A DNA stretch of 64,000 nt from a phage. Position numbers and translations under genes: made by a program. The stretch is from the sequence record PX104378.1. One strand, given 5' to 3'. Positions 4,393 to 39,011 of this stretch are shown here, in pieces. The stretch's first letter is position 1, and each line of letters begins with the position of its first letter. A model generated the notes under the pieces. That model was given only the letters and a program-made list of their open reading frames with translations, ran no database searches and was not told the DNA's origin.

Positions 4393-5862
4393 CTATTCCC
4401 CATTGCCATTATACTTTCTTTGCTTAGTTATCCACACTCTAACCATCTCTACTGATTCACCGTCAGACGGATCAAGAGTTTTTCCTTTTTTCTTCATGCG
4501 GTACTTAAATCCGTTAAATCTTGCATTCTCTTGCTCGTTAAAGTCGAACATCTTTTTAAATGATTTTCGCCCTTTACGCTCACCACATTCTAGCGGAATC
4601 ATTCGGTCTGTTATTACATTGGCATTAGGTAGAAACGTTTTTAGATAATCTACCAACGCCCAATCAGGAACATATAGATTAACATTCTCCTTGCTCTCGT
4701 TGTCTCTCAGGTTACAACGCAAACATAATTGAAATGCTGGTTCCAGATAATCAGACACATGACGCGCTTTCAAAAACTCATTTGTCGGGAGATCACAACT
4801 ATTAGCAAGACCTTTTAAAATATCAATCTCCCATCGTTGAGGGTTAAAGCTGAACATCACCGCAACATTTTTATGATGAATGTAAGAGTTAAGACCATAA
4901 GACCCGTAAGGTATCCGCTCACCAATACCATTTGTACACGCTTCACGGTCCCGATTCACGGTATAAATGAAGTCATCACCACATTCATTTTTAACCATAT
5001 CAACAAGACGTTCAAAGGTATTGTTTGTTTCTGACTGGTGACGCGACCAGCGTTCGGAGTCCGTCATAAGGATGATATTAACTCTATCTGTATTTTTATA
5101 CTCTTTGAAATATAGTCTGGATTCTAGCGCACTCGGAACAAAATCGCAATTTGCATAGTATCGTAGATACTTCCCGCTATATGTATCAAAGAGATTTGCA
5201 CATGCTATCGTAACCTTTTTAAAGTCTCCCCACGTACCGTGTTTGTTATCGTTCAAGAAAACAATTTTCGACCCATTCTTCCGGTGTCCTTCGTTATGTT
5301 TTACCATAACGTTGATTTTCTTCTCTAATAACGCCTCATAAAGCCCTCTAAGAGAAGAATCGATCATATCAGTACCATCCTTTGCACTTTCTATCTTTTC
5401 TTTGATAGCGGCCTTCTCAGAGTCTTTTAGAACTAGGTTCTGTAGGCATTCCGATTCGTCGGCGATTGGTTCGCAATGCTTCGTGATAAGTTCAAGATTA
5501 GACTTAAACGGATACTCATTAAATTCAACCAGTTGAGGAACTTCATCAATGTAAAGAGCATATTCACTAAACATTTTTGAACGCTCCATATTAGATAACG
5601 CTGTATGTGTGATGAATATCACATCAGCACCATCTTTAACTGATTGCATTATCGACGCTTGCACTGTCTTAAGGCTTCTTAGTCTGGTGCTATCAATCAA
5701 GACAGCACGACCGCCCATTCTTTTAAACTTATTGTAAGATTGTTCACTTAAAACACGAGATGGCGAAGCAATAACCGCTTTTTCTTTTGTCTCTAGGACG
5801 TGGGAAAGTATAGCATCAGTTTTCCCCGCCGCTGGCAATGCGATTAATGTTTCAATCTTCAT
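4393..5862 (-). CDS. putative P-loop NTPase (489 aa), function unknown
   Basis: N-terminal Walker A-like ALPAAGKTDA and Walker B-like YIDEVPQ; occupies the position where T4 has a-gt, to which it shows no similarity. Confidence 0.6.
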   Translation of the reverse strand: MKIETLIALPAAGKTDAILSHVLETKEKAVIASPSRVLSEQSYNKFKRMGGRAVLIDSTRLRSLKTVQASIMQSVKDGADVIFITHTALSNMERSKMFSEYALYIDEVPQLVEFNEYPFKSNLELITKHCEPIADESECLQNLVLKDSEKAAIKEKIESAKDGTDMIDSSLRGLYEALLEKKINVMVKHNEGHRKNGSKIVFLNDNKHGTWGDFKKVTIACANLFDTYSGKYLRYYANCDFVPSALESRLYFKEYKNTDRVNIILMTDSERWSRHQSETNNTFERLVDMVKNECGDDFIYTVNRDREACTNGIGERIPYGSYGLNSYIHHKNVAVMFSFNPQRWEIDILKGLANSCDLPTNEFLKARHVSDYLEPAFQLCLRCNLRDNESKENVNLYVPDWALVDYLKTFLPNANVITDRMIPLECGERKGRKSFKKMFDFNEQENARFNGFKYRMKKKGKTLDPSDGESVEMVRVWITKQRKYNGNGE

Positions 5863-6329: not shown

Positions 6330-6588
6330 AAATCGCCCTCAGTTCTTTATAGCCTCCAATGTGCTCGTTGTCAATGAATATCTGGGGGTATACAAACCGG
6401 AGGCTCTTTGAGTTTAGCCTCCCCGCCAGTTCTTCAATCATATCACGGTCGGGAATAATGTCAACCCCGACCTGCTTGAATACTGGTTTAAGTGTATACG
6501 GAATACCCAGATCATCCAGTAGCTTCATTGCACTAATACAACCATAACAATGATAAGCCTCTTTCGGTATACCGTATATCTCGATCAT
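6319..6588 (-). CDS. glutaredoxin-like protein (NrdH-like)
   Basis: N-terminal CYGC redox motif, ~89 aa, C-terminal GGY..L motif typical of glutaredoxin fold. Confidence 0.7.
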   Translation of the reverse strand: MIEIYGIPKEAYHCYGCISAMKLLDDLGIPYTLKPVFKQVGVDIIPDRDMIEELAGRLNSKSLRFVYPQIFIDNEHIGGYKELRAIYDY

Positions 6589-7082
6589 TTCTCAGCCTTT
6601 AATCTTTCTAGTTCTTCTTCCAGTTCCTTGATCCGTTGGTCACGTTCAAAGTCACGCTGTAACTTAGTGGCGAATACTCGTTTAAACTGATTGTAATCAT
6701 CGATTTTAAACACTTCTTCTTCGCCATAGCGACGCACAGAAACTTCGTAGTTGTTGAAAAATTGTTCCAACATTGCATCAGTAGTCAGTTCTGACGACAC
6801 CACTTTAAAATAACGTTCTTCTGATTGCAAAAACCAGTTGTGCGCGTATTCCCGTACATCATCAACATCTCGACAGGTGTATGTTTTTCCATCAATTTCA
6901 ATCGCAGAAACATATTCGATATCTGACGCAATTTTTTCAAAAGCGATAACTTTAAATGTACGGTCACCGATAAAGTCTGCTATTGCATCATTTGCAACAC
7001 TGGTTGCAAAGGCTTTCCGCGCTCGCTCGTTTTTCCACTGATAGGTCATACCAACAACAAACATATTACCATCAACAAACAT
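6585..7082 (-). CDS. hypothetical protein, paralog family A
   Basis: Contains VGMTYQWKNERARKAF and FKV..DG..YT domain shared with ORFs at 7084, 7930, 8402, 13320, 14555, 15136; charged coiled-coil C-terminus; start at ATG 7082 after GAGG RBS. Confidence 0.55.
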   Translation of the reverse strand: MFVDGNMFVVGMTYQWKNERARKAFATSVANDAIADFIGDRTFKVIAFEKIASDIEYVSAIEIDGKTYTCRDVDDVREYAHNWFLQSEERYFKVVSSELTTDAMLEQFFNNYEVSVRRYGEEEVFKIDDYNQFKRVFATKLQRDFERDQRIKELEEELERLKAEK

Positions 7083-7089
7083 ATTACCA
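7054..7089. repeat. tandem direct repeat 2 x 17 bp (CAACAAACATATTACCA) with 1-nt spacer
   Basis: Read directly; 18-nt period keeps frame and duplicates the start-codon context of ORF 6585-7082 (NMFVDG / NMFVVG). Confidence 0.7.
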
Positions 7090-7917
7090 ACCTCGCTCTT
7101 TACCAATCAAAAATTCAACTTCACGACGTTTAATGTCTTCTTGAAGGTCTTTAATCTTCTGGCGATCTTGCATGATTTCATCCATCTTGTCAAGTGCCGC
7201 AATGAAATCATCGAAACGTTCAAAGGTTTTACCTTCATTTGCTTCGCCAAATTTAACCATTGTCAGGCCATAACGACTACTAAAAAGACGCTTCAACTGT
7301 CCAACGACCTTAGAATCATCGTTCACCTTTTCTTCTGGTTCTTTCACGGTTTCAACTTCACGAAAATATTTTCGTTCAAGCCCAACAAACCACACAGCAT
7401 CAACATCATCATCAACACCCGCCGAATGAGGATTAAATGTTCCACAAACATTATCATTATTGATGTCGATCATAGTAACGAAACCAACAGAATCAACGGA
7501 AGATACCGTAAAAGTCTCATCTCCTATCCAATCAGCAATTTTACGGTTGATATTAGAACAGTGAGAAAACGTCACTTTTGCGTTTACATCCTTCCAAATA
7601 TAAGTTTTACCAACTTCCCATTTAGGAGGAACTTCTTCAACTTCACGAAAGAATTTTATATCAAATGGACTAAACAAATATGTTGACGTCCAAATGTCTT
7701 TTCCTGTAGCCGTTTTCGCCGTATGATAAACACCGTCTAGCTCTATTACATTAATCCAACCATCACCTTCGTTCTCGATGATGGTAAATGGCTTGTCACC
7801 AATAGCTGCACTGATATCGCTGTTAAGTGGAGAAAGAACACCTTCTCCGTTAGTAATAAACTCAGTTTTAGCGTTTTCATCTTTCCAAGTGTAAGTTTTA
7901 CCAATTTCCCATTTCAT
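7084..7917 (-). CDS. hypothetical protein, paralog family A (two repeat domains)
   Basis: MKWEIGKTYTWKD at N-terminus and second internal copy PPKWEVGKTYIWKD. Confidence 0.6.
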   Translation of the reverse strand: MKWEIGKTYTWKDENAKTEFITNGEGVLSPLNSDISAAIGDKPFTIIENEGDGWINVIELDGVYHTAKTATGKDIWTSTYLFSPFDIKFFREVEEVPPKWEVGKTYIWKDVNAKVTFSHCSNINRKIADWIGDETFTVSSVDSVGFVTMIDINNDNVCGTFNPHSAGVDDDVDAVWFVGLERKYFREVETVKEPEEKVNDDSKVVGQLKRLFSSRYGLTMVKFGEANEGKTFERFDDFIAALDKMDEIMQDRQKIKDLQEDIKRREVEFLIGKERGW

Positions 7918-7929
7918 AATATATTCCCC

Positions 7930-8397
7930 TTAACCGATTTTATCAAGTTCGTTTAATGCTTTCTCAGCTTCCTGTATAGCTTGCACTCTTTCCGGCATTT
8001 TGTCAAGAAAATCTTTCAACTCTTCAAAACTGGAGATATGACGCAAGGCGTTAGCACCGATAGCCGCATGTGATTTGCATTCAAAGCGGATTTTATAATT
8101 ATCCATCGCCAACTTGAGAAGATCAATTAATTTAGATTCTTCTGGAATAATAATTTCTTCAAATCTGCTACGGTCATGATCCAGAAACCAACAATATAGA
8201 CCTACATCGGTTGAACTCATATAAGTTCCATCATGAAGATAAACAGACCGCACGTATCCTTTTTTCGCATCAACCGACGCAACTTTAAACGGTAATCTCA
8301 GATATTTCAAATAATCAACATCATACCATTTTAAAAAATGGTCTGCATCTTTTACATCTTTCCAGGCATAGGTCTTACCAACTTCCCATTTCAACAT
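7930..8397 (-). CDS. hypothetical protein, paralog family A
   Basis: N-terminal MLKWEVGKTYAWKD..FKVASVD domain. Confidence 0.6.
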   Translation of the reverse strand: MLKWEVGKTYAWKDVKDADHFLKWYDVDYLKYLRLPFKVASVDAKKGYVRSVYLHDGTYMSSTDVGLYCWFLDHDRSRFEEIIIPEESKLIDLLKLAMDNYKIRFECKSHAAIGANALRHISSFEELKDFLDKMPERVQAIQEAEKALNELDKIG

Positions 8398-8401
8398 AAT
8401 A

Positions 8402-8947
8402 TCACCTTTCGTTTTTGATACGTGATTCTAATTGGATCATACGGTCGCGCGTTTGTTTGTATTCTCGGATAGCACCGATCCGGCTAGGCATACCATCCAG
8501 TACGCTCTTAATACCTTCTAGGGTAGTGATTTTAGCAATGCTATTATGTAACCCCATCTTATCGATCAACTGAATGTCGTAGGCTTCCATAAGCAGACCC
8601 AGACGTTCTAATGTTAAATCCGGTTCTTGTTCTTTATCTTCTTCCTTTTCTTCCGGTTCTGGGATTTCTTTGTCAATAGTAGCTTCGGTAAAGAAACGAC
8701 GCTCACCAGCCCAAAACCACACACCGTAACAGTTAATAGGGGATTCTTTTAAAGTCATGGAGTCGAAATCACTACCAATAATAGTAATTTCTCTAACATC
8801 ACCATCGTCATCAATGTCTTCTACCTTAAACGGGCGACCAGCCAACAAGTCCACAATACATCCGTTAATACCCGACGAAAATTTAGTCAGTTCAGCTTTC
8901 GACGCTTCGCATTTAATATTGTAGATTTTACCTACTTCCCATTCCAT
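8402..8947 (-). CDS. hypothetical protein, paralog family A
   Basis: N-terminal MEWEVGKIYNIK..RPFKVEDIDDDG domain; start at ATG 8947 after GAGGTGATTATT RBS. Confidence 0.6.
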   Translation of the reverse strand: MEWEVGKIYNIKCEASKAELTKFSSGINGCIVDLLAGRPFKVEDIDDDGDVREITIIGSDFDSMTLKESPINCYGVWFWAGERRFFTEATIDKEIPEPEEKEEDKEQEPDLTLERLGLLMEAYDIQLIDKMGLHNSIAKITTLEGIKSVLDGMPSRIGAIREYKQTRDRMIQLESRIKNER

Positions 8948-10223: not shown

Positions 10224-10763
10224 TCAAAGGTCGCGATATAGTACATTATGAAAATGAGAACTTGCATTACCAATATTGTAGATAATAAATTCTTCATCCG
10301 GCGCTTGCGCTACAAATTGAGTATGAGCAACCGCCACAACCTTAAAAATACGATCCGTGATCTTGTGTTTAATTTCTGCCCCTACTTCCATAGGAACATA
10401 TTCATTTGTTTCTGTTTCAGTCGCAAAACAGCCATCTTCTTCATAAGCACGAACAAATCGGTCGCACTCAGTACGCTTAACAAATTCAAGAGTATACAAT
10501 TCTCGTGAATTGTCGGTATAGACCAATACAGAATTATTATGATAGCGAATCACATACAGGTTATTATCATCGTCAATTACGCAAAAGCTACGGATTCCTT
10601 CGCCTATACTCCAGCAGATATTAACCACGGTTCCTCTAATAAAAAAACTTTCCTTTAAATTAAAACTAGTCAATGTGCTAGCGTGCATTTTAACAACAAC
10701 ACCATCGCCAATTTCCAGTTTACGAAGTTTAACTTCTTTGCTCAGTACACAAAACATCATCAT
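10224..10763 (-). CDS. hypothetical protein (179 aa)
   Basis: ORF directly downstream of PeSL promoter 10793-10820 and GAGAGGACAAC RBS. Confidence 0.5.
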   Translation of the reverse strand: MMMFCVLSKEVKLRKLEIGDGVVVKMHASTLTSFNLKESFFIRGTVVNICWSIGEGIRSFCVIDDDNNLYVIRYHNNSVLVYTDNSRELYTLEFVKRTECDRFVRAYEEDGCFATETETNEYVPMEVGAEIKHKITDRIFKVVAVAHTQFVAQAPDEEFIIYNIGNASSHFHNVLYRDL

Positions 10764-10792
10764 GTTGTCCTCTCGTTGTTTTCGATGTGAGC

Positions 10793-10820
10793 ATTATACA
10801 TTAGCCAATCATGTTGTCAA
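10793..10820 (-). promoter_or_regulatory. PeSL-type early promoter (TTGACA-N16-TATAAT)
   Basis: Consensus hexamers on minus strand; conserved leader GCTCACATCGAAAACAACGAGAGGA before ATG 10763. Confidence 0.7.
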
Positions 10821-10835
10821 CACCCCAAAACGAAA

Positions 10836-10858
10836 AAGCCGACCCTTTCGGATCGGCT
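10836..10858 (-). terminator. intrinsic terminator after nrdD (part of PeSL)
   Basis: Hairpin AGCCGATCCGAAAGGGTCGGCT followed by T-run on minus strand. Confidence 0.6.
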
Positions 10859-10863
10859 GAAAA

Positions 10864-12726
10864 TTACATATGCTTAACGCGGTTTACCATCTCAGAGTGT
10901 TTCCCGTGGTTAAATGGACGCAGATCAACAGATCCAAGATATCCACTAACGCGACGGATAACATTCATTTTTTCCAGATTATCATTACCGCAATCAGGAC
11001 AAACAAAACCAAACTCGGTCGCTCTCATTTCCTTAGTAGATCCGCATACATGACACACATCAGAAGGGGTATTAACACCGAAGTAGTGCAATTTATCCAT
11101 TGCATAGTCTACTACAGTTTCAAGACCTTTCAGGTTGTTTTTCATGTCTGGGAACTCAACATAAGAGATCATGCCACCGGACGCCAGCCAGTGATAATCT
11201 TTCTCAAAGTCGATTTTCTCAAATGGAGTGACTTTCCGGTCTACGTCAAGGTGGAATGAGTTGGTGTACCAGTCTTTATCGGTAGCACCCTTAACAATAC
11301 CAAATTGCTCTCGGTCCAGTCGATTAAATCGATAGCAAAGGCTCTCGGCTGGCGTACCGTAAAGACTAAACCCAAGTCCGGTTTCGTCCTTCCATTTTTC
11401 AGTATAATGACGCAAGATCTTAAGAATATGTTTACCGTATCGCTGCGCATCTTCCGAATCAAACGGATGAACACCAAACAGGACGCTCAATACCTCATGT
11501 AAACCAATATATCCAAGAGAGATACTAGCGCGACCATCTTTCAACACTTCCAAAATTTCATCGTTTTGATGAATACGGAAAAATGCACCTTCTGTATACA
11601 GCACCGGAGCAACATTGGCTTTAGCCCCTTTTAAAGCGTCTACGCGACTCATGAGCGCATCAAAGCAAATAGGCATACGATTGGCTAGCTCTTGTTCGAA
11701 TAGCTCAATTCTGCGCATTACAGACGCTTTACCAGCACGACGCGCGGCAATAAGGGCAATACGCGGAAGATTCAGAGTCACAACACCTAAGTTATTACGT
11801 CCGTCTAATACTTCTTCGCCTTTCTCATTATGCCAAACACCCAGGAAGCTACGACAACCCATCGGGCTAACCGGAACACTAGATCCAGTGATACTACGGT
11901 TATTCTTCGCAGAGATATAATCAGGGTAAAGACGCTTACTAGAACATTCCAATGCAAGTTGCTTAATGTCGTAGTTCGGATCTTCCGGTTTAAGGTTTAA
12001 TCCTTCTTCTAAGAACATCACCAGCTTAGGAAACACCGGAGTGATACCATCTTTACCTAAACCTTTAGTTCGAACGTTCAGGATCGCTTTCTGAATCAGT
12101 TTTTCTTCCCAGCTAGTACCCATACCAAAGGTTAAAGTCACAAAAGGCGTTTGACCATTGGTAGAGAACAAAGTGTTGATCTCATATTCCAACGCCTGAT
12201 ATCCGTCTAACGTTTCTTTTTCTGTCTTCTCTTGTGCATAGAGAGTATCAGCTTTGATTCCGTAGGTTTCGGCATCAGCAAGGTGTTTATGATATGTTTT
12301 CTCAACGTATGGCGCTAAAACCTGATCAATGTTTGCTATGGTAGTTCCGCCATATTGATGACTTGCCACCTGTGCGATAATTTGAGCGGTTACAGCACAT
12401 GCAACACCGATTGATTTCGGACTTTCGATTTGTGCACTACCCAATTTAAAACCATTCTCTAACATGTCTTTGAGATTAACAAGACAGCAGTTAGTAAACG
12501 GCATAGCGGGTGCATAATCCATATCATGATAATGAATATCACCGTCTACATGCGCTTTATAGATGTGCTCAGGTAACACGGTTTTAGCAATCTGTTTAGA
12601 CACAGCGCCAGCAATCAGATCTCGACGTGTCGGGAATGTTCGCGCGTCTTTGTTCGCGTTCTCTTTGCTTACTTCGTTTTCTTTACCCGTTGCGATCTCT
12701 GTAATGTCTTTGATTAGTTTTTCCAT
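10864..12726 (-). CDS. nrdD: anaerobic ribonucleoside-triphosphate reductase NrdD (class III)
   Basis: 620 aa; C-terminal zinc ribbon CHVCGS..CPDCG and glycyl-radical motif RVSGYLGSVD; uninterrupted ORF. Confidence 0.95.
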   Translation of the reverse strand: MEKLIKDITEIATGKENEVSKENANKDARTFPTRRDLIAGAVSKQIAKTVLPEHIYKAHVDGDIHYHDMDYAPAMPFTNCCLVNLKDMLENGFKLGSAQIESPKSIGVACAVTAQIIAQVASHQYGGTTIANIDQVLAPYVEKTYHKHLADAETYGIKADTLYAQEKTEKETLDGYQALEYEINTLFSTNGQTPFVTLTFGMGTSWEEKLIQKAILNVRTKGLGKDGITPVFPKLVMFLEEGLNLKPEDPNYDIKQLALECSSKRLYPDYISAKNNRSITGSSVPVSPMGCRSFLGVWHNEKGEEVLDGRNNLGVVTLNLPRIALIAARRAGKASVMRRIELFEQELANRMPICFDALMSRVDALKGAKANVAPVLYTEGAFFRIHQNDEILEVLKDGRASISLGYIGLHEVLSVLFGVHPFDSEDAQRYGKHILKILRHYTEKWKDETGLGFSLYGTPAESLCYRFNRLDREQFGIVKGATDKDWYTNSFHLDVDRKVTPFEKIDFEKDYHWLASGGMISYVEFPDMKNNLKGLETVVDYAMDKLHYFGVNTPSDVCHVCGSTKEMRATEFGFVCPDCGNDNLEKMNVIRRVSGYLGSVDLRPFNHGKHSEMVNRVKHM

Positions 12727-12770: not shown

Positions 12771-13265
12771 TTATTTTACCAGTTCTGCTAATTCTTTTTC
12801 CGCCGCTTCCAGTTCAGCTTTCAGTTGTTTAATCTCTTGTCGCTTCTTATTAGCGGCTTCCTGCTTACTATTTCGGATAACCTGATCTAGATATGAATCC
12901 CACTCATGAATATTTTTGATAATGTAACCGTCAACGTTCAGAACTTTAATATTAAGAACTTCTTCCAGCTTACTTAAAGAACGTTGTGTTTCGGGGAAGA
13001 AATAGTCATATTCACCTCGGTCAAACCAGTAGCGTATGCCAGCTTTATCTAAACGACGATGCAATTCATCAAAATCTCTACCATCTTCGACGATGAGTTT
13101 GTCTACATCGCCATTACAGTTAACAGAGACTTTGAATCTAATATTATCAACCCCACCAAAAACATCAATAAGGATAGTTCCTATCGTGTTATCCGCGCTT
13201 CCAGTATCCATAAAAGATTCTAGTTTTTCTTGATTAGTAACGTACCAAACATCTTGTTTCCACAT
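12771..13265 (-). CDS. hypothetical protein (164 aa) with coiled-coil C-terminus
   Basis: ORF downstream of PeSL promoter 13296-13323; C-terminal KQLKAELEAAEKELAELVK. Confidence 0.5.
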   Translation of the reverse strand: MWKQDVWYVTNQEKLESFMDTGSADNTIGTILIDVFGGVDNIRFKVSVNCNGDVDKLIVEDGRDFDELHRRLDKAGIRYWFDRGEYDYFFPETQRSLSKLEEVLNIKVLNVDGYIIKNIHEWDSYLDQVIRNSKQEAANKKRQEIKQLKAELEAAEKELAELVK

Positions 13266-13295
13266 AATATAATCCTCTCGTTGTTAAGTGGGAGT

Positions 13296-13323
13296 ATTAT
13301 AGCATACTCCCTTCGCATGTCAA
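13296..13323 (-). promoter_or_regulatory. PeSL-type early promoter (TTGACA-N16-TATAAT), hairpin spanning spacer/-10
   Basis: Minus strand TTGACATGCGAAGGGAGTATGCTATAATACTCCC. Confidence 0.65.
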
Positions 13324-14498
13324 GCACTAACTTTTTTCTTTACTGCTTTCACCTTCTGGCGAATTGCTCGAATCTCTTCGATCTCTTTTTCAGTCTCTTT
13401 AACAATTTCTTTGCGATTCTGAATATCTGTATCGAGATTATCATCAAGTTTAGGCAGCATGTCAATCAAGAACTTTTTAAAGTCTTTCAGGTTTCTGATA
13501 ACAGCACCTTCACCCATTACCGCCACCCCTACACCATCCGGCAGATCGCCAAACAGTTTAACCAGTTCAGACAGATGATCATGATCTTCTAGTGCTTCTT
13601 CCGGTTCAGATGGCAGTTCAACAAAGTTATAACGTTCATCATTGCTGATCAGGTGATACCAGCAAAGCCCGAATGATTTCGGTGTATATTCTACACCATC
13701 AATTTCAACCGAGTCAACACTTCCATAATCATCTACTTTAGTTACCTTAAATCCTTGTCCCAGCTTTTGAACAATTTCAACAACATGACTTGATACAGTT
13801 TCAGCGGTAAACCAATATGGCAAATTATGCTGATTTGGCTTGTAGCGTTCACCTACTTTAAATCTCTGACCAGCCGCTTGCATAGCATGAAATTGTTGTT
13901 TCGTGATTTCCGCGAAGTATTCAAATTCGCCACCATCAAACACACAAGCCCATTGTTCACAAAAACGATCTGCCTTAACAGTTTCACCTTTCGCGGTGAT
14001 CATGGTAGCCGACCCGTGAAATTCTTCTTCAACTAAAAAGCCATATTCGACAAAATCAACAAGTTTCATGGCTTCTTTGTGCTCTGGATCATGCTCTCCC
14101 CAGAATCGCTTAAATTCTTGCAAACCTTCCGGGGTAAACGAATAGCACTTACCTTTTTCAAAGTAAGTAGGCATTGCATCGTCTTTCTTGTTCATCGCTT
14201 CGTATGCCTCTTTTGAGATGCGTTTAAAGTATTTGCGCTCATTGTGCATAATCATAGTAGCCCAATAATCCACAATATCATTAGCGGAATAAACTACATC
14301 TCCAGCTTCAATAGTAATAACATGACCGTGGTCATCTTTTTCTAATACTTTAAAGCCCTTTTCTACGATTCCAGCAACCCGAATATGACCACGGCGCGAA
14401 GCATCGGTCAGAATAATTGAATAGCGAGAAAAGTCTAGAAACTCATCTTTACCGCCTTCACGGAATGCATAGTAATGCCCTTCAAAGAATTTAGCCAT
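13320..14498 (-). CDS. hypothetical protein, paralog family A (about three repeat domains, 392 aa)
   Basis: Repeated GFKVLEKDDHG.. / GFKVTKVDDYGSVDSVEIDGVEYT and ERKYFKRISKEAYEAM segments. Confidence 0.6.
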   Translation of the reverse strand: MAKFFEGHYYAFREGGKDEFLDFSRYSIILTDASRRGHIRVAGIVEKGFKVLEKDDHGHVITIEAGDVVYSANDIVDYWATMIMHNERKYFKRISKEAYEAMNKKDDAMPTYFEKGKCYSFTPEGLQEFKRFWGEHDPEHKEAMKLVDFVEYGFLVEEEFHGSATMITAKGETVKADRFCEQWACVFDGGEFEYFAEITKQQFHAMQAAGQRFKVGERYKPNQHNLPYWFTAETVSSHVVEIVQKLGQGFKVTKVDDYGSVDSVEIDGVEYTPKSFGLCWYHLISNDERYNFVELPSEPEEALEDHDHLSELVKLFGDLPDGVGVAVMGEGAVIRNLKDFKKFLIDMLPKLDDNLDTDIQNRKEIVKETEKEIEEIRAIRQKVKAVKKKVSA

Positions 14499-14529
14499 AA
14501 TATAATCCTCTCGTTGTTTAGATGGGAGT

Positions 14530-14558
14530 ATCTTACTACTCCCGTTTCATCATGTCAA
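14530..14558 (-). promoter_or_regulatory. PeSL-type early promoter (TTGACA-N17-TAAGAT)
   Basis: Same GGGAGTA..TACTCCC hairpin module as at 13296 and 15440. Confidence 0.6.
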
Positions 14559-15121
14559 GCGTTAAATGACTTTTTAATCTCTTTCAGTTCTTCCACTTTC
14601 TCGGCGCTGAATTTAGCGTAGGTATCATGTCGAATAATTTCACTTTCAAGAAAGGTTTCCAGTCGAGATCTATTTTCAATAAGGAACTCTTTCAGGTCTT
14701 CCGCGTTCTTGACAAAGATTTTATTGTCGGTAATGTCATCTTCAATCGCAAAGGAGATAGAGCGAACTTTACCAAACAAGTTAATCAGATCTTCCAGAGA
14801 TTCTTCTTTCTTAACTGGTTTCATTTCTTCAAACTGCTTTTTAGTGATGCGTTTAAAGTATTTGCGCTCGTTTGCAGCAATCAGAACAGATGCACCTTCA
14901 TACCCATGAGTTTCTACCAGATACACACGCCCCATCGCATCAACAGTGAGAACTTTAAAGCCGTTACAAAGCACGTCATACAAGAACTTATTATGTTGCG
15001 GACATCGTTTGATAAATTCTGCGGCTGTTTCTGCACTACGGAAAGTATAGTAACGACCTCGTTCAAAAACAGCATCATTTGAAGACTTAGCCGGATACAA
15101 TTTATACGTTTTCTGTACCAT
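14555..15121 (-). CDS. hypothetical protein, paralog family A
   Basis: NGFKVLTVDAMGRV..ERKYFKRITKKQFEEM; start at ATG 15121 after GAGGATTATATT RBS (alternative ATG 15139). Confidence 0.55.
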   Translation of the reverse strand: MVQKTYKLYPAKSSNDAVFERGRYYTFRSAETAAEFIKRCPQHNKFLYDVLCNGFKVLTVDAMGRVYLVETHGYEGASVLIAANERKYFKRITKKQFEEMKPVKKEESLEDLINLFGKVRSISFAIEDDITDNKIFVKNAEDLKEFLIENRSRLETFLESEIIRHDTYAKFSAEKVEELKEIKKSFNA

Positions 15122-15135
15122 AATATAATCCTCTA

Positions 15136-15408
15136 TCATTTCACTAATTGAACAGCACGGAACAGAATGCGCTCACACGGAAGCAGCATAAATTCCCAAC
15201 GCGGATCAAAGTCTTTAGCGGTGTATGTTTTCCCATCAACCGAGATTTCACTTACATAACCAACAGGTGACACTTTAAGAACAGTAAACCCATTCTTGAT
15301 GACTTCGTAGGTATCTTTCACCCCTTCGTATTCATCATCTAAGAAGTCTTTATGTGCTTGCTCAGATTTAAAAACATAGGCCACACCGGATTTAAACATC
15401 TTACGCAT
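15136..15408 (-). CDS. hypothetical protein, paralog family A (single domain)
   Basis: FKSEQAHKDF..NGFTVLKVSPVGYVSEISVDGKTYTAKDF; start at ATG 15408 after GGAGAATCAACA leader. Confidence 0.5.
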   Translation of the reverse strand: MRKMFKSGVAYVFKSEQAHKDFLDDEYEGVKDTYEVIKNGFTVLKVSPVGYVSEISVDGKTYTAKDFDPRWEFMLLPCERILFRAVQLVK

Positions 15409-15439
15409 TGTTGATTCTCCTTCTTGATTAGATGGGAGT

Positions 15440-15468
15440 ATTTTACTACTCCCATTTCTTATTGTCAA
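15440..15468 (-). promoter_or_regulatory. PeSL-type early promoter (TTGACA-N17-TAAAAT)
   Basis: Minus strand TTGACAATAAGAAATGGGAGTAGTAAAATACTCCC then GGAGAATCAACA RBS. Confidence 0.6.
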
Positions 15469-19018: not shown

Positions 19019-19297
19019 TTACATGTCTTGCAGTGCATAAAAGCATTTTTCTTCGTAGTCATAGAAAATGTCAAAGTATGCTTTTTCTACATACTCGCCA
19101 TTGATCCAAGCGGCAGTAACAATCAGAGTGGTCCAGTTAGATCCGCTCTCAACCGTAAAGGTTTTAATACCCAGCTTCGCTGCTAAGTCGAACGCAAACC
19201 GGACGCAACCACGGCAGGAAGTGATATTGGAAGTTTTGATTTTGATGCCACCGCGAGTTTTAGAAATTTCTACTTTAGCGAAAGACAGGTTGCTCAT
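19019..19297 (-). CDS. hypothetical protein (92 aa)
   Basis: ATG after PeSL leader GGAGAATCAAA; promoter 19340-19368 upstream. Confidence 0.5.
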   Translation of the reverse strand: MSNLSFAKVEISKTRGGIKIKTSNITSCRGCVRFAFDLAAKLGIKTFTVESGSNWTTLIVTAAWINGEYVEKAYFDIFYDYEEKCFYALQDM

Positions 19298-19339
19298 TTT
19301 GATTCTCCTTAAGAAAGTGTGTTTCGTTTTGATGTGTGT

Positions 19340-19368
19340 AGTATAGGGGATACGTGATCCCCTGTCAA
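19340..19368 (-). promoter_or_regulatory. PeSL-type early promoter (TTGACA-N17-TATACT) with hairpin spacer
   Basis: Spacer GGGGATCACGTATCCCC palindromic; conserved leader ACATCAAAACGAAACACAC. Confidence 0.65.
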
Positions 19369-19376
19369 CAACTTTT

Positions 19377-19640
19377 TTATGATTTTAGTGAATTAACTAC
19401 TACATCAAAATGATGTACAGAGCACACCTTACGAAACACGTATTCATCATGTTTAGGAATCTCCCCTAACCTCTCTATTTCGCTCGCTAACACGATAAAC
19501 CGTTTATCCGGTACATTTACCTTATATGCTTCAACAACGCACGGAAAACGCGTTTTAGCGAGTTCGGGATAGTTTTCTGACTCCATCAGGACAATGAATA
19601 CTCTGTTACATTGATTGTAGAATCCTGTTTTTGATTTCAT
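19377..19640 (-). CDS. hypothetical protein (start uncertain)
   Basis: Track ORF overlaps upstream gene by 100 nt; internal ATG at 19640 chosen. Confidence 0.35.
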   Translation of the reverse strand: MKSKTGFYNQCNRVFIVLMESENYPELAKTRFPCVVEAYKVNVPDKRFIVLASEIERLGEIPKHDEYVFRKVCSVHHFDVVVNSLKS

Positions 19641-34771: not shown

Positions 34772-35024
34772 AGAATGAAATTTTCACAGACACAATTTTA
34801 CCATAAGTGAAGAATGAATATACATTATCGAGATATTCAACGTCACCTACAATCACATCAAACTGCGGATCAGCAACCGCCGCAACATATTCTACCAGTT
34901 CATCAAGAGAATGCAACTTAATTTCATCAATTCGGCTGTATTTGGTTGCATCTTTGATTTTAAAACCACGTTGTTTCAGCTTATCAATTAGAATTTCACG
35001 CGGAGTTTCAAACAGTTTGCTCAT
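34704..35024 (-). CDS. hypothetical protein (106 aa)
   Basis: ATG after GAGGATTATATT RBS. Confidence 0.5.
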   Translation of the reverse strand: MSKLFETPREILIDKLKQRGFKIKDATKYSRIDEIKLHSLDELVEYVAAVADPQFDVIVGDVEYLDNVYSFFTYGKIVSVKISFCENVEVLASEPEKPTDNGPTAA

Positions 35025-35045
35025 AATATAATCCTCACATTAAAT

Positions 35046-38550: not shown

Positions 38551-38928
38551 TTAAGAATATTTTACTTCGTCTACAATGTCTTTCATGACATTGATTTCCA
38601 TTCCGGTCAGAACACGTTGGAACATGTGCTGCACATACGCTTTCAGGTATTCATTTGATGGCTTGCTATCGAAAGTCTTTTTAGTGTAGTAGTCATCACC
38701 GAAAGCTACTGTAATTACATTTTCGTCGTCGTTCCAAGCGATATAAGCAAATTTGCCGTTATCCCAGAAGCGAGCACTAATTGCTACTTTTGTTGAATCG
38801 AATCCTACTTCGCTGTGAGATTCAAGAACTACTTGCGTGCCAGTTTCTTTATGAATGTAGTAGCGGGATACTAAGTCAAAGTTACGGGTGTAGTGACATT
38901 CGAATTTATCTTTAAACATCATCATCAT
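38551..38928 (-). CDS. hypothetical protein (125 aa)
   Basis: Start at ATG 38928 after PeSL leader; promoter 38966-38994. Confidence 0.5.
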   Translation of the reverse strand: MMMMFKDKFECHYTRNFDLVSRYYIHKETGTQVVLESHSEVGFDSTKVAISARFWDNGKFAYIAWNDDENVITVAFGDDYYTKKTFDSKPSNEYLKAYVQHMFQRVLTGMEINVMKDIVDEVKYS

Positions 38929-38965
38929 TTTGATTCTCCTAAGTGTGTTTCGTTTCGATATGTGC

Positions 38966-38994
38966 ATTATGCTATAGTCGTTTATGGTTGTCAA
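38966..38994 (-). promoter_or_regulatory. PeSL-type early promoter (TTGACA-N17-CATAAT)
   Basis: Leader ACATATCGAAACGAAACACAC and GGAGAATCAAA RBS before ATG 38928. Confidence 0.65.
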
Positions 38995-39011
38995 CACCTA
39001 AAAACAAAAAA

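What the first reader, a model, noticed from the sequence alone, without database searches (positions are those of the whole stretch)
6585..8947. Tandem array of four paralogous genes (family A) upstream of nrdG
Four consecutive genes (6585-7082, 7084-7917, 7930-8397, 8402-8947) each open with a conserved ~60-aa domain (W-E-V-G-K-T-Y-x-W-K-D ... F-K-V ... D-G ... Y-T) and end in charged coiled-coil tails; the 7084 gene carries two copies. The same domain recurs in a second array at 13320-15408 on the other side of nrdD/nrdG, giving roughly a dozen domain copies in 9 kb. I do not recognise it as any characterised T4 protein family. Such expansion in a hyperplastic early region is typical of fast-evolving host-interaction or anti-defence factors.
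Basis: seen in the sequence. Interest (0 to 1): 0.7.

Follow-up and report, generated by a model that had tools for sequence, protein, structure and literature searches.

The report
Expanded GoF/Frd.2-family gene arrays in RB49-like phage
The repeated domain is real, but it is the small beta-barrel of the phage T4 proteins GoF and Frd.2, a family described in 2025 whose normal function is unknown; this RB49-like phage carries 11 copies in 8 early genes and swaps them as cassettes between isolates.

Summary
The window is a Krischvirus (RB49-like coliphage), and all the genes concerned lie on the minus strand.

- **Copies.** Array A (6585-8947) holds 5 copies of an 85-100 aa N-terminal domain in 4 genes. 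Array B (13320-15408) holds 5 copies in 3 genes.
- **Statistical support.** Profiles built from one array find every gene of the other (E 2e-11 to 4e-4; background 0.07 or weaker).
- **Interpretation.** The domain is the N-terminal barrel of T4 GoF (E 1e-17), Frd.2 (9e-10) and MotB.1 (3e-4). Kim et al. 2025 described this family as "LSm-like".
- **Evolution.** The "fast-evolving" idea is partly supported. Isolates that are 98-100% identical in nrdD and nrdG carry domain-sized replacement alleles only 55-74% identical, and one isolate lacks a barrel. However, dN/dS stays below 1.
- **Function.** The normal function is unknown. The best guess is early, non-enzymatic binding proteins that act on mRNA fate. 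An anti-defence role is untested.

The parts
6585..7082 (-). A1: one GoF-type barrel (6786-7061) plus a conserved helical C-terminal domain (6588-6785). A second in-frame ATG lies at 7064.
   Evidence: ORF. phrog_5347 E 1.8e-53. Iterated HMM E 2.3e-27. The barrel is 73-74% nucleotide-identical to the allele in 5 isolates while the C-terminal domain is 93-97% identical. An 18-nt duplication sits at the start (D16).
7084..7917 (-). A2: two barrels (7633-7917 and 7321-7629) plus a C-terminal domain (7087-7320).
   Evidence: Two HMM domains, i-E 1.1e-23 and 5.8e-23. The second barrel is 53-55% identical to the allele in 5 isolates and absent in phage ELT4. A 29-nt repeat at the ends of the two units (D11) could mediate the loss of one unit.
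7930..8397 (-). A3: one barrel (8146-8397) plus a C-terminal domain (7933-8145).
   Evidence: HMM E 8.3e-20. AlphaFold2 mean pLDDT 80: strands 9-12, 37-42, 49-53, 59-61 and 79-82, with helices 15-25 and 28-34 inserted after strand 1. The C-terminal domain is helix, hairpin, helix, then a long helix 134-154.
8402..8947 (-). A4: one barrel (8666-8947), an acidic Pro/Glu linker, and a C-terminal domain (8405-8665).
   Evidence: HMM E 4.8e-24. phrog_5347 E 4e-61. The linker carries an 18-nt length polymorphism among isolates.
12771..13265 (-).
   Evidence: The HMM from array A or array B alone is not significant. The iterated family HMM, whose training alignment excludes X (its seed profile included X's N-terminal unit), gives E 3.4e-8 over profile positions 1-81. 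AlphaFold2 mean pLDDT 84 shows the same strand-helix-helix-strand-strand order and a terminal helix 119-163. The N-terminal part is 63-66% identical to the allele in 6 isolates and 100% identical to JK32.
13320..14498 (-). B1: three barrels (14208-14498, 13893-14177, 13578-13871) plus a C-terminal domain (13323-13577). Its RB49 orthologue is annotated frd.2 / goF mRNA metabolism modulator.
   Evidence: Three HMM domains, i-E 3.8e-17, 5.7e-15 and 7.1e-20. phrog_8944 E 1.9e-212, and phrog_5347 matched to profile position 162 of 165. RefSeq annotation.
14555..15121 (-). B2: one barrel (14810-15076; the only basic one, pI 9.3) plus a C-terminal domain (14558-14809). The start is most likely the ATG at 15121, not 15139.
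   Evidence: HMM E 4e-17. The GAGGATTATATTATG ribosome-binding context is identical to that of B1 and X. The RB49 orthologue is 567 nt. pI. The C-terminal domain is 69-70% identical to the allele in 3 isolates.
15136..15408 (-). B3: a stand-alone barrel of 90 aa with no tail.
   Evidence: HMM E 3.3e-26. phrog_16115 E 8e-60. 90-aa orthologues P0001-P0006.
13266..13323 (-). Promoter-early stem-loop (PeSL) cassette upstream of X.
   Evidence: TTGACA-16-TATAAT, 12 of 12 matches, with TG. The stem-loop GGGAGTA..TACTCCC overlaps the -10 box and is followed by the ribosome-binding site and ATG. The element type is described in PMC2839356.
14499..14558 (-). PeSL cassette upstream of B1.
   Evidence: TTGACA-17-TAAGAT, the same stem-loop, and a 78-nt repeat shared with the B3 PeSL (D2).
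15409..15468 (-). PeSL cassette upstream of B3 (and of B2, which follows with no promoter of its own).
   Evidence: TTGACA-17-TAAAAT, 11 of 12 matches, and the same stem-loop.
10764..10858 (-). Terminator plus consensus promoter after nrdD. It is the nearest strong promoter upstream of the promoter-less run orf10224-orf9679-nrdG-A4-A3-A2-A1. Co-transcription of that run is inferred, not shown.
   Evidence: Terminator-like hairpin at 10858-10837 and TTGACA-16-TATAAT with 12 of 12 matches at 10820-10793. Array-A genes are 1-12 nt apart and separated only by ribosome-binding sites.

Best explanation
**What it is (shown).** The region holds two tandem arrays, plus one extra gene, of paralogues of the T4 early proteins GoF and Frd.2.
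- Each protein has one to three copies of an 85-100 aa SH3-like small beta-barrel with a two-helix insert after strand 1. In seven of the eight proteins an acidic linker follows, then a 65-85 aa helical C-terminal domain that ends in a long charged helix. The eighth (B3) is a bare barrel.
- The set grew by tandem gene duplication, duplication of barrels within genes, and duplication of promoter-plus-gene (PeSL) cassettes.
- It is still being reshuffled. Closely related isolates carry different barrel alleles, as divergent as paralogues, and differ in barrel number.

**How it works (inferred).**
- The proteins are made from consensus sigma-70 early promoters in the first minutes of infection. 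They are non-enzymatic binding proteins.
- The conserved residues are core and turn positions (G, Y, F, F, V). The variable barrel surface would therefore be the recognition module.
- The conserved helical tail would be an oligomerisation or docking module.
- By analogy with GoF(D25Y), which lengthens the half-life of gene 41 mRNA, the most likely target is phage or host mRNA, or a protein that handles it. The effect would be to change transcript stability or expression during host takeover.
For: **Family membership.**
- Cross-validated HMMs link arrays A and B.
- The window-derived HMM hits T4 GoF residues 4-90 (E 1.3e-17), Frd.2 residues 2-87 (9.2e-10) and MotB.1 residues 3-83 (3e-4).
- In 137 kb of T4 it finds only those three genes; the next hit is E 0.48.
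- PHROG goF families match A2, B1, B2 and B3 at E below 1e-4; A1 matches one only at E 0.0068, with no individually significant stretch.
- Foldseek against BFVD gives 38 hits at E 1e-3 or better. All those with an organism name are T4-like phages apart from phAPEC8; none has a known function (one, in Citrobacter phage Moon, is labelled 'Protease inhibitor'); one is Dc2.

**Early expression.** Consensus promoters with stem-loops lie upstream of B3, B1 and X. They match the PeSL elements shown experimentally to be strong early promoters in RB49 and phi1 (PMC2839356).

**Recognition module versus conserved tail.**
- In array A, barrel dN/dS is 0.22-0.52 against 0.02-0.13 for the tails.
- Allele replacement is confined to barrel-sized segments.
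- The invariant alignment columns are G7, Y10, F37 and F79.

**RNA link.**
- GoF(D25Y) stabilises mRNA post-transcriptionally (PMC12152347).
- frd.2 is the only gene of unknown function scored as "Fit" in a T4 CRISPRi-ART screen (PMC11879866).
- The two GoF suppressor substitutions mimic states that occur naturally here. The G84 column is R or K in 6 of 11 units. The D25 column is aromatic in 4 of 11 units.
Against: - Wild-type GoF and MotB.1 had little effect on the RNA reporter, and no RNA binding has been shown for any family member (PMC12152347).
- Most of these proteins are acidic, with full-length pI 4.65-5.3 and 7 of 11 barrels at pI below 5. That is unusual for RNA binders.
- The pattern "variable barrel, conserved tail" does not hold for B2, whose tail is the more divergent part.
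- Early timing rests on promoter sequence only.
- Oligomerisation through the tail is untested.
Confidence: 0.5

Rival explanations
1. **Anti-defence or host-factor inhibitors.** Each barrel would bind and neutralise a different host protein, such as an immunity sensor, nuclease or protease. The arrays would be an arsenal that diversifies under an arms race, and the acidic linkers and surfaces might mimic nucleic acid.
For: - Barrel-sized alleles of 55-74% identity sit in a 98-100% identical backbone, and barrel number varies between isolates.
- dN and dN/dS are raised relative to neighbouring genes.
- The genes lie in a hyperplastic region with mobile PeSL cassettes (PMC2839356).
- The set is expanded from 3 to 12 barrels relative to T4.
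- The proteins are acidic.
Against: - No family member has been linked to a defence system in the library searched.
- dN/dS stays below 1. The raised dS shows that much of the divergence is imported by recombination rather than generated by positive selection in place.
- frd.2 knock-down lowers T4 fitness on a standard host (PMC11879866). That points to a general role rather than a strain-specific one.
Confidence: 0.25
2. **Modulators of the transcription machinery.** The barrel would act like a Tudor or KOW domain. It would dock on RNA polymerase or on Rho and alter termination or elongation on phage DNA. The proteins would join the many T4 early proteins that retarget the host polymerase.
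For: - goF mutations were isolated as suppressors of rho (nusD) hosts, and GoF was first proposed to be an antiterminator (PMC12152347, introduction).
Against: - Reporter assays showed that GoF(D25Y) acts post-transcriptionally (PMC12152347).
Confidence: 0.15
3. **No real family.** The shared motif would be a chance or compositional resemblance among unrelated small ORFs.
For: Pairwise identities are only 20-35%, and Pfam, NCBIfam and PADLOC give no hit.
Against: - The cross-validated HMM E-values reach 1e-11, with background at 0.07 or weaker.
- Independent PHROG profiles cross-hit the genes.
- The T4 control scan is specific.
- Two independent AlphaFold models give the same architecture.
Confidence: 0.01

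Closest known systems
T4 GoF (comC-alpha), Frd.2 and MotB.1: the phage "LSm-like fold" family of Kim et al. 2025 (PMC12152347)
   Same: - The N-terminal barrel is homologous by sequence (E 1e-17, 9e-10 and 3e-4).
- The layout is the same: barrel, acidic linker, small C-terminal domain.
- The genes are early and dispensable-type, and are restricted to T4-like phages.
- No family member has a known wild-type function.
   Different: - There are 11 barrels in 8 clustered genes here, against 3 scattered single-barrel genes in T4.
- Some proteins have two or three barrels.
- The C-terminal domain is of a different type, with a long charged terminal helix. The array-A tail HMM does not hit GoF or Frd.2.
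- The genes sit in the nrdH-nrdG and nrdD-49 gaps, which hold no such genes in T4. The T4 goF/motB.1 site between gene 39 and dexA is empty in RB49.
- The paper does not mention RB49, tandem arrays or duplications.
Sm/LSm/Hfq RNA chaperones
   Same: Both are small five-stranded, strongly bent beta-barrels. Oligomerisation is plausible, since barrels occur fused in twos and threes and the tails are helical. There is also a genetic link to mRNA stability through GoF(D25Y).
   Different: - There is no N-terminal helix before strand 1. Two helices are inserted between strands 1 and 2 instead.
- There is no Pfam LSM or Hfq match.
- The proteins are mostly acidic.
- Ring formation and RNA binding are untested.
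FeoA and the DtxR/IdeR C-terminal SH3-like domains
   Different: There is no sequence relationship (Pfam FeoA is not hit), no metal-binding histidines, and no link to iron transport. The similarity is at fold level only.
PeSL + ORFan cassettes of RB49 and phi1 (Arbiol et al. 2010, PMC2839356)
   Same: A consensus sigma-70 promoter with a stem-loop overlapping the -10 box, then a Shine-Dalgarno sequence and ATG, lies directly upstream of X, B1 and B3. The cassettes sit in a hyperplastic region next to nrdD, a gene that paper names as PeSL-associated.
   Different: That paper describes PeSLs as mediating insertion and deletion of unrelated ORFans. Here one PeSL subtype (GGGAGTA..TACTCCC, found 3 times in 64 kb and only here) accompanies paralogues of a single family. 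Much of the variation between isolates is replacement inside genes, at barrel boundaries, rather than at PeSLs.

Membership tests
GoF/Frd.2/MotB.1 phage small-barrel family (Kim et al. 2025) | N-terminal domain of about 80-90 aa homologous to the GoF and Frd.2 N-terminal domains | tested here: met
   An HMM built from window units, then iterated, hits T4 GoF 4-90 (E 1.3e-17), Frd.2 2-87 (9.2e-10) and MotB.1 3-83 (3e-4). It finds nothing else in 137 kb of T4. PHROG goF families also match.
GoF/Frd.2/MotB.1 phage small-barrel family (Kim et al. 2025) | Predicted bent five-stranded antiparallel barrel joined by a flexible linker to a variable C-terminal domain | tested here: met
   In the AlphaFold2 models of A3 (mean pLDDT 80) and X (84), A3 has five strands with a two-helix insert; X keeps the same strand-helix-helix-strand-strand order, but a helix (65-74) takes the place of the fourth strand. 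pLDDT dips in the linker, and a helical C-terminal domain follows.
GoF/Frd.2/MotB.1 phage small-barrel family (Kim et al. 2025) | Early gene of a T4-like phage | tested here: inconclusive
   The phage is a Krischvirus, family Straboviridae. Consensus early-type promoters and PeSLs lie upstream of B3, B1 and X. No expression data were available, and the array-A genes have no promoter of their own.
GoF/Frd.2/MotB.1 phage small-barrel family (Kim et al. 2025) | Effect on mRNA stability (shown only for the GoF D25Y mutant) | not testable with these tools
   This needs reporter or half-life assays. There is only an indirect hint: the suppressor-like residues are natural in several units.
Sm/LSm/Hfq superfamily | N-terminal alpha-helix followed by five strands, with Sm1/Sm2 sequence motifs | tested here: not met
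   No helix precedes strand 1, and helices are inserted between strands 1 and 2. No Pfam LSM or Hfq hit even at E up to 1.
Sm/LSm/Hfq superfamily | Closest structural neighbours are Sm/Hfq proteins | tested here: not met
Sm/LSm/Hfq superfamily | Hexameric or heptameric ring that binds RNA | not testable with these tools
   No multimer prediction or biochemistry was available. Kim et al. report no confident AlphaFold3 homomultimers for GoF or MotB.1.
FeoA / DtxR-type SH3-like domain | Sequence membership in Pfam FeoA, and a role with FeoB or metal regulators | tested here: not met
PeSL regulatory cassette (Arbiol et al. 2010) | Intergenic sigma-70 consensus promoter, adjacent or overlapping GC-rich stem-loop, Shine-Dalgarno sequence, and start codon of the downstream ORF | tested here: met
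   Met at 13266-13323, 14499-14558 and 15409-15468: TTGACA, a 16-17 nt spacer and a -10 box with 10-12 of 12 matches, with the GGGAGTA..TACTCCC stem over the -10 box, then GAGG..ATG.
Known anti-phage-defence or counter-defence protein families | Profile match to a catalogued family | tested here: not met
   PADLOC gives no family for seven of the eight proteins. The only match is a weak Csx1 match to the helical tail of X, E 0.0025. PADLOC holds defence proteins, not counter-defence proteins, so the test has limited reach.

The most novel reading that the evidence does not exclude
The arrays would be a cassette system for switching specificity. In this reading a conserved helical tail assembles homo- or hetero-oligomers of small barrels, in the way eukaryotic Sm proteins form mixed rings. 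The barrels themselves would be exchanged between phages as domain-sized alleles. The exchange would use short conserved DNA patches at the barrel ends (KWEVGKTY at the 5' end, ERKYFxEV at the 3' end) and the flanking PeSLs. Each phage lineage would then carry its own combination of RNA-binding or host-protein-binding surfaces. That would make this a modular, recombination-driven recognition repertoire inside a lytic phage, acting on host takeover or on immunity.
Probability: 0.15. Interest if true: 0.75.

Novelty: new member of a known kind. Interest (0 to 1): 0.42.

Why it matters
GoF has been an unsolved T4 gene since the 1970s, and frd.2 is the only gene of unknown function that scored as a fitness gene in a genome-wide T4 knock-down screen.

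RB49-like phages offer a natural experiment on this family:
- There are twelve barrels in place of three.
- Fusions of two and three barrels occur naturally.
- A tail-less barrel exists.
- Natural alleles are as divergent as paralogues, in otherwise isogenic backgrounds.
- Several natural barrels already carry the residue types (an aromatic residue at GoF position 25, a basic residue at position 84) that turn T4 GoF into an mRNA stabiliser.

Together these give concrete constructs for asking what the barrel binds, and whether its diversification tracks host RNA-handling factors or host immunity.

The result also corrects the annotation. All eight genes belong to one family, yet five are annotated only as hypothetical proteins in the RB49 RefSeq record.

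Tried and rejected
- **Profile libraries.** Pfam, NCBIfam and PADLOC scans of all eight proteins gave nothing above the curated cut-offs. The RecT hit on B1 (E 8e-4, 19 bits against a cut-off of 24) and the LYR hit on B2 were rejected as sub-threshold matches to short stretches.
- **Solved structures by sequence.** A profile search of PDB sequences gave only chance-level hits, the best at E 0.006 over 29 residues of a kinase.
- **Solved structures by fold.** Foldseek against the PDB gave nothing at E below 0.26. The afdb50 library was not available.
- **Giant repeat proteins.** The 1.84-billion-protein scan returned giant VCBS-like repeat proteins of 1,000-6,400 aa. They match only profile positions of about 35-65, in many repeated stretches. 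I judged this to be repeat-amplified similarity to a beta-hairpin motif, not homology.
- **Array-A tail HMM.** It does not reach significance on array B (E 0.06), on X, or on T4 GoF and Frd.2. Homology of the tails across arrays therefore rests only on the full-length PHROG and BLASTP alignments.
- **Word-indexed homologue search.** It reached only Krischvirus relatives.
- **Possible extra copies.** Candidates at 34707-35039, 38554-38997, 19022-19384 and 10224-10763 have E 0.014-0.19, with partial coverage only. They are not counted as members.
- **Rfam.** No RNA family was found in the window.
- **Literature.** A search for a link between this family and anti-defence found none.
Full report
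**Source and layout.** The window is 93-98% identical in DNA to RB49, JK32, Phi1 and 56 other Krischvirus coliphages. All genes between 4 and 17 kb are on the minus strand. Read in the direction of transcription, the order is:
1. dam, nrdC, endonuclease VII (gene 49)
2. B3, B2, B1 and X
3. nrdD
4. three small ORFs
5. nrdG
6. A4, A3, A2 and A1
7. nrdH

Array A is therefore downstream of nrdG on the coding strand. In T4 the same backbone (nrdH-55.8-nrdG-mobC-nrdD-49) holds no related genes. The arrays thus fill two gaps that are specific to this lineage.

**Check of the observation.** Pairwise BLASTP identities are 25-35%.

I cut eleven candidate units and cross-validated them:
- An HMM from the five array-A units finds the three array-B genes at E 1.8e-11, 1.3e-8 and 7.1e-7. 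The best unrelated segment among 617 six-frame segments of the window scores 0.076.
- An HMM from the five array-B units finds all four array-A genes at 3e-10 to 3.9e-4, with the next hit at 1.4.

The unit is 85-100 aa, not 60. A2 has two units and B1 has three.

An iterated family HMM, whose training alignment excludes X (its seed profile included X's N-terminal unit), finds it at E 3.4e-8 over profile positions 1-81. Its AlphaFold model has the same architecture.

The total is 11 units in 8 genes within 8.9 kb. Four further weak candidates in the window (E 0.014-0.19) are not counted.

**What the domain is.**
- Pfam, NCBIfam, PADLOC and PDB sequence searches give nothing.
- PHROGs links the genes to families annotated "goF mRNA metabolism modulator". 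The RB49 RefSeq record calls the B1 orthologue frd.2.
- The window-derived HMM hits T4 GoF residues 4-90 (E 1e-11, and 1.3e-17 after iteration), Frd.2 residues 2-87 (4e-7, then 9e-10) and MotB.1 residues 3-83 (0.17, then 3e-4).
- As a specificity control I scanned 137 kb of T4 in six frames. Only those three genes appear; the next hit is E 0.48.

This is exactly the family that Kim et al. 2025 defined from deep sequence searches and AlphaFold3 and called "LSm-like" (PMC12152347). Their text does not mention RB49, tandem arrays or duplications.

**Distribution.**
- An exhaustive HMMER scan of 1.84 billion representative proteins finds only 80 clusters at E 1e-3 or better. About 65 of them are small proteins with the domain at the N-terminus and several different C-terminal domains. 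The rest are giant repeat proteins that I regard as spurious.
- Foldseek against BFVD gives 38 hits at E 1e-3 or better. All those with an organism name come from T4-like phages apart from phAPEC8, and the hosts include Escherichia, Proteus, Aeromonas, Morganella, Citrobacter, Pectobacterium, Serratia and Edwardsiella. None has a known function, although one in Citrobacter phage Moon is labelled "Protease inhibitor".

**Structure.** The AlphaFold2 model of A3 has mean pLDDT 80. It shows strands at 9-12, 37-42, 49-53, 59-61 and 79-82, with two helices (15-25 and 28-34) inserted after strand 1. A low-confidence linker follows, then helix, hairpin, helix and a long terminal helix 134-154. X gives the same order, with a 45-residue terminal helix (mean pLDDT 84).

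The fold class is therefore secure, but the "LSm" label is loose. The canonical N-terminal helix is absent, and the helical insert resembles FeoA-type SH3 domains.

The invariant alignment columns (G7, Y10, F37, F79; nearly invariant F21, V39, G47) are glycine-turn and hydrophobic positions lying in strands 1, 2 and 5, helix 1 and the turn between strands 2 and 3. That looks like a conserved scaffold with a variable surface rather than a conserved active site. This is an inference.

Most of the proteins are acidic, and only the B2 barrel is basic. The tails are 40-54% charged. Whether they form coiled coils was not tested.

**Evolution.** RB49 has one further member, Dc2, just upstream of gene 41. 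It has no goF, cef, motB or motB.1 at the T4 position. Krischvirus therefore carries 12 barrels in 9 genes, against 3 in 3 for T4.

I aligned the region from eight isolates.

| Region | dN/dS |
|---|---|
| nrdD, nrdG, endonuclease VII | about 0.04 |
| Barrels | 0.13-0.52 |
| Array-A tails | 0.02-0.13 |

No value exceeds 1, and dS is also strongly raised in A1, X and B2.

The reason is allele replacement. In a backbone that is 98-100% identical, four segments stand out:

| Segment | Identity to most isolates | Identity to the matching isolate |
|---|---|---|
| A1 barrel | 73-74% (five isolates) | 100% (ELT4) |
| Second A2 barrel | 53-55% (five isolates); absent in ELT4 | 98% (JK32) |
| X barrel | 63-66% (six isolates) | 100% (JK32) |
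| B2 tail | 69-70% (three isolates) | 100% (ELT4) |

Short DNA patches are conserved between paralogues at the barrel ends: a 58-nt patch at the KWEVGKTY start and a 29-nt patch at the FFREVE end. These could support such exchanges, and also the loss of one A2 barrel. That is an inference.

Upstream of X, B1 and B3 lie near-identical promoter/stem-loop elements. Each has TTGACA, a -10 box overlapped by the stem GGGAGTA..TACTCCC, and then GAGGATTATATTATG. That stem occurs three times in the 64-kb window and only there. These elements match the PeSL cassettes shown to be strong early promoters and recombination sites in RB49 and phi1 (PMC2839356). Array-A genes are 1-12 nt apart with no promoters. 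They are probably read from upstream, possibly from the 12-of-12 promoter at 10820-10793. This too is an inference.

**Function.** Nothing is established for the wild-type family.

| Finding | Source |
|---|---|
| GoF(D25Y) and GoF(G84R) let T4 grow on rho mutants | PMC12152347 |
| D25Y lengthens mRNA half-life post-transcriptionally, independently of Hfq | PMC12152347 |
| Wild-type GoF and MotB.1 do little in the same assay | PMC12152347 |
| frd.2 knock-down reduces T4 fitness | PMC11879866 |
| An in-frame deletion in the acidic region of goF rose to high frequency in an evolution experiment | PMC9271167 |

Mapping the two suppressor positions onto the window units with hmmalign shows the following:
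- The G84 column is R or K in 6 of 11 units.
- The D25 column is aromatic in 4 of 11 units. The D25 column lies next to an indel, so this mapping is less certain.

Some natural barrels may therefore already have the activity that T4 GoF gains by mutation. This is a testable inference.

I commit to early, non-enzymatic binding proteins that affect mRNA fate, with the barrel as the recognition module and the tail as the assembly module (confidence about 0.5, most of which rests on the shown family membership and architecture). The rivals are anti-defence or host-factor inhibitors (0.25) and Tudor/KOW-like binding to RNA polymerase or Rho (0.15). The acidity of the proteins and the weak effect of wild-type GoF count against direct RNA binding. 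The lack of any known defence link, and dN/dS below 1, count against the arms-race reading.

**Verdict.** The claim that the family is unrecognised is wrong. The claim of rapid, expansion-type evolution is supported in the form of modular allele shuffling. The anti-defence function remains a guess. These are new members of a known but functionally unsolved family. They add lineage-specific expansion, multi-barrel fusions, and cassette-like exchange between isolates. They are of moderate interest, mainly as a well-equipped system for finally working out what GoF-type proteins do.

Noticed in passing
window 13290-13311, 14524-14543, 15434-15453: The stem-loop GGGAGTA..TACTCCC occurs exactly three times in the 64-kb window (0 expected by chance). 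Each copy overlaps the -10 box of a TTGACA promoter directly upstream of X, B1 or B3. One PeSL subtype therefore seems to have been duplicated together with the GoF-type genes.
   Followed up: partly
window 7049-7084: An 18-nt tandem duplication (TACCAACAACAAACATAT / TACCATCAACAAACATAT on the + strand) lies at the start of A1. It creates two in-frame ATG starts, at 7082 and 7064. The RB49 and JK32 orthologues have the shorter form.
   Followed up: partly
window 10224-10763 (minus strand): A 179-aa ORF lies between nrdD and nrdG. It has two weak stretches matching the barrel HMM (E 0.19), belongs to its own PHROG of unknown function, and has an allele only 66% identical in phage JK32. A terminator-like hairpin (10858-10837) and a 12-of-12 consensus promoter (10820-10793) precede it. 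It may be another small-barrel protein.
   Followed up: no
window 34707-35039, 38554-38997, 19022-19384 (all minus strand): Three small ORFs of unknown function give marginal partial hits to the family HMM (E 0.014, 0.024 and 0.043, with 617 segments searched). That is more than chance predicts, but none covers the whole domain.
   Followed up: partly
L010 (RB49 NC_005066) 11993-12628, outside the window: RB49 gene dc2, immediately upstream of helicase gene 41, is a ninth family member (HMM E 1e-7; the BFVD Dc2 model of phage ECD7 also matches structurally). This is curious because T4 GoF(D25Y) acts on gene 41 mRNA. RB49 lacks goF, cef, motB and motB.1 at the T4 position between gene 39 and dexA.
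   Followed up: partly
L005 (phage ELT4) 1186-2220, the counterpart of window 6585-7917: In ELT4 the A2 orthologue has a single barrel (537 nt), and the A1 orthologue is split into two ORFs. Barrel number and gene integrity therefore vary between isolates that are otherwise 97-100% identical.
   Followed up: partly
window 8405-8665 (A4 linker): The acidic Glu/Pro/Lys linker of A4 has an 18-nt length polymorphism among isolates. This recalls the in-frame 21-bp deletion in the acidic region of T4 goF that rose to high frequency in a gut-on-a-chip evolution experiment (PMC9271167).
   Followed up: no
window 4393-5862 (minus strand): A 489-aa ORF (phrog_2467, unknown function) lies just beyond nrdH. 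The Sf20 record notes DEAD/DEAH-box helicase and P-loop NTPase domains for its orthologue. It is highly conserved among isolates.
   Followed up: no
proteins P0029, P0034, P0044, P0052 and others: Giant repeat proteins of 1,000-6,400 aa from metagenomes score up to E 4e-28 against the barrel profile. The score comes from dozens of short matches to the strand 2-strand 3 hairpin motif (FxVxxVDxxGxV). I judged this to be repeat-amplified chance similarity, but it was not examined structurally.
   Followed up: partly
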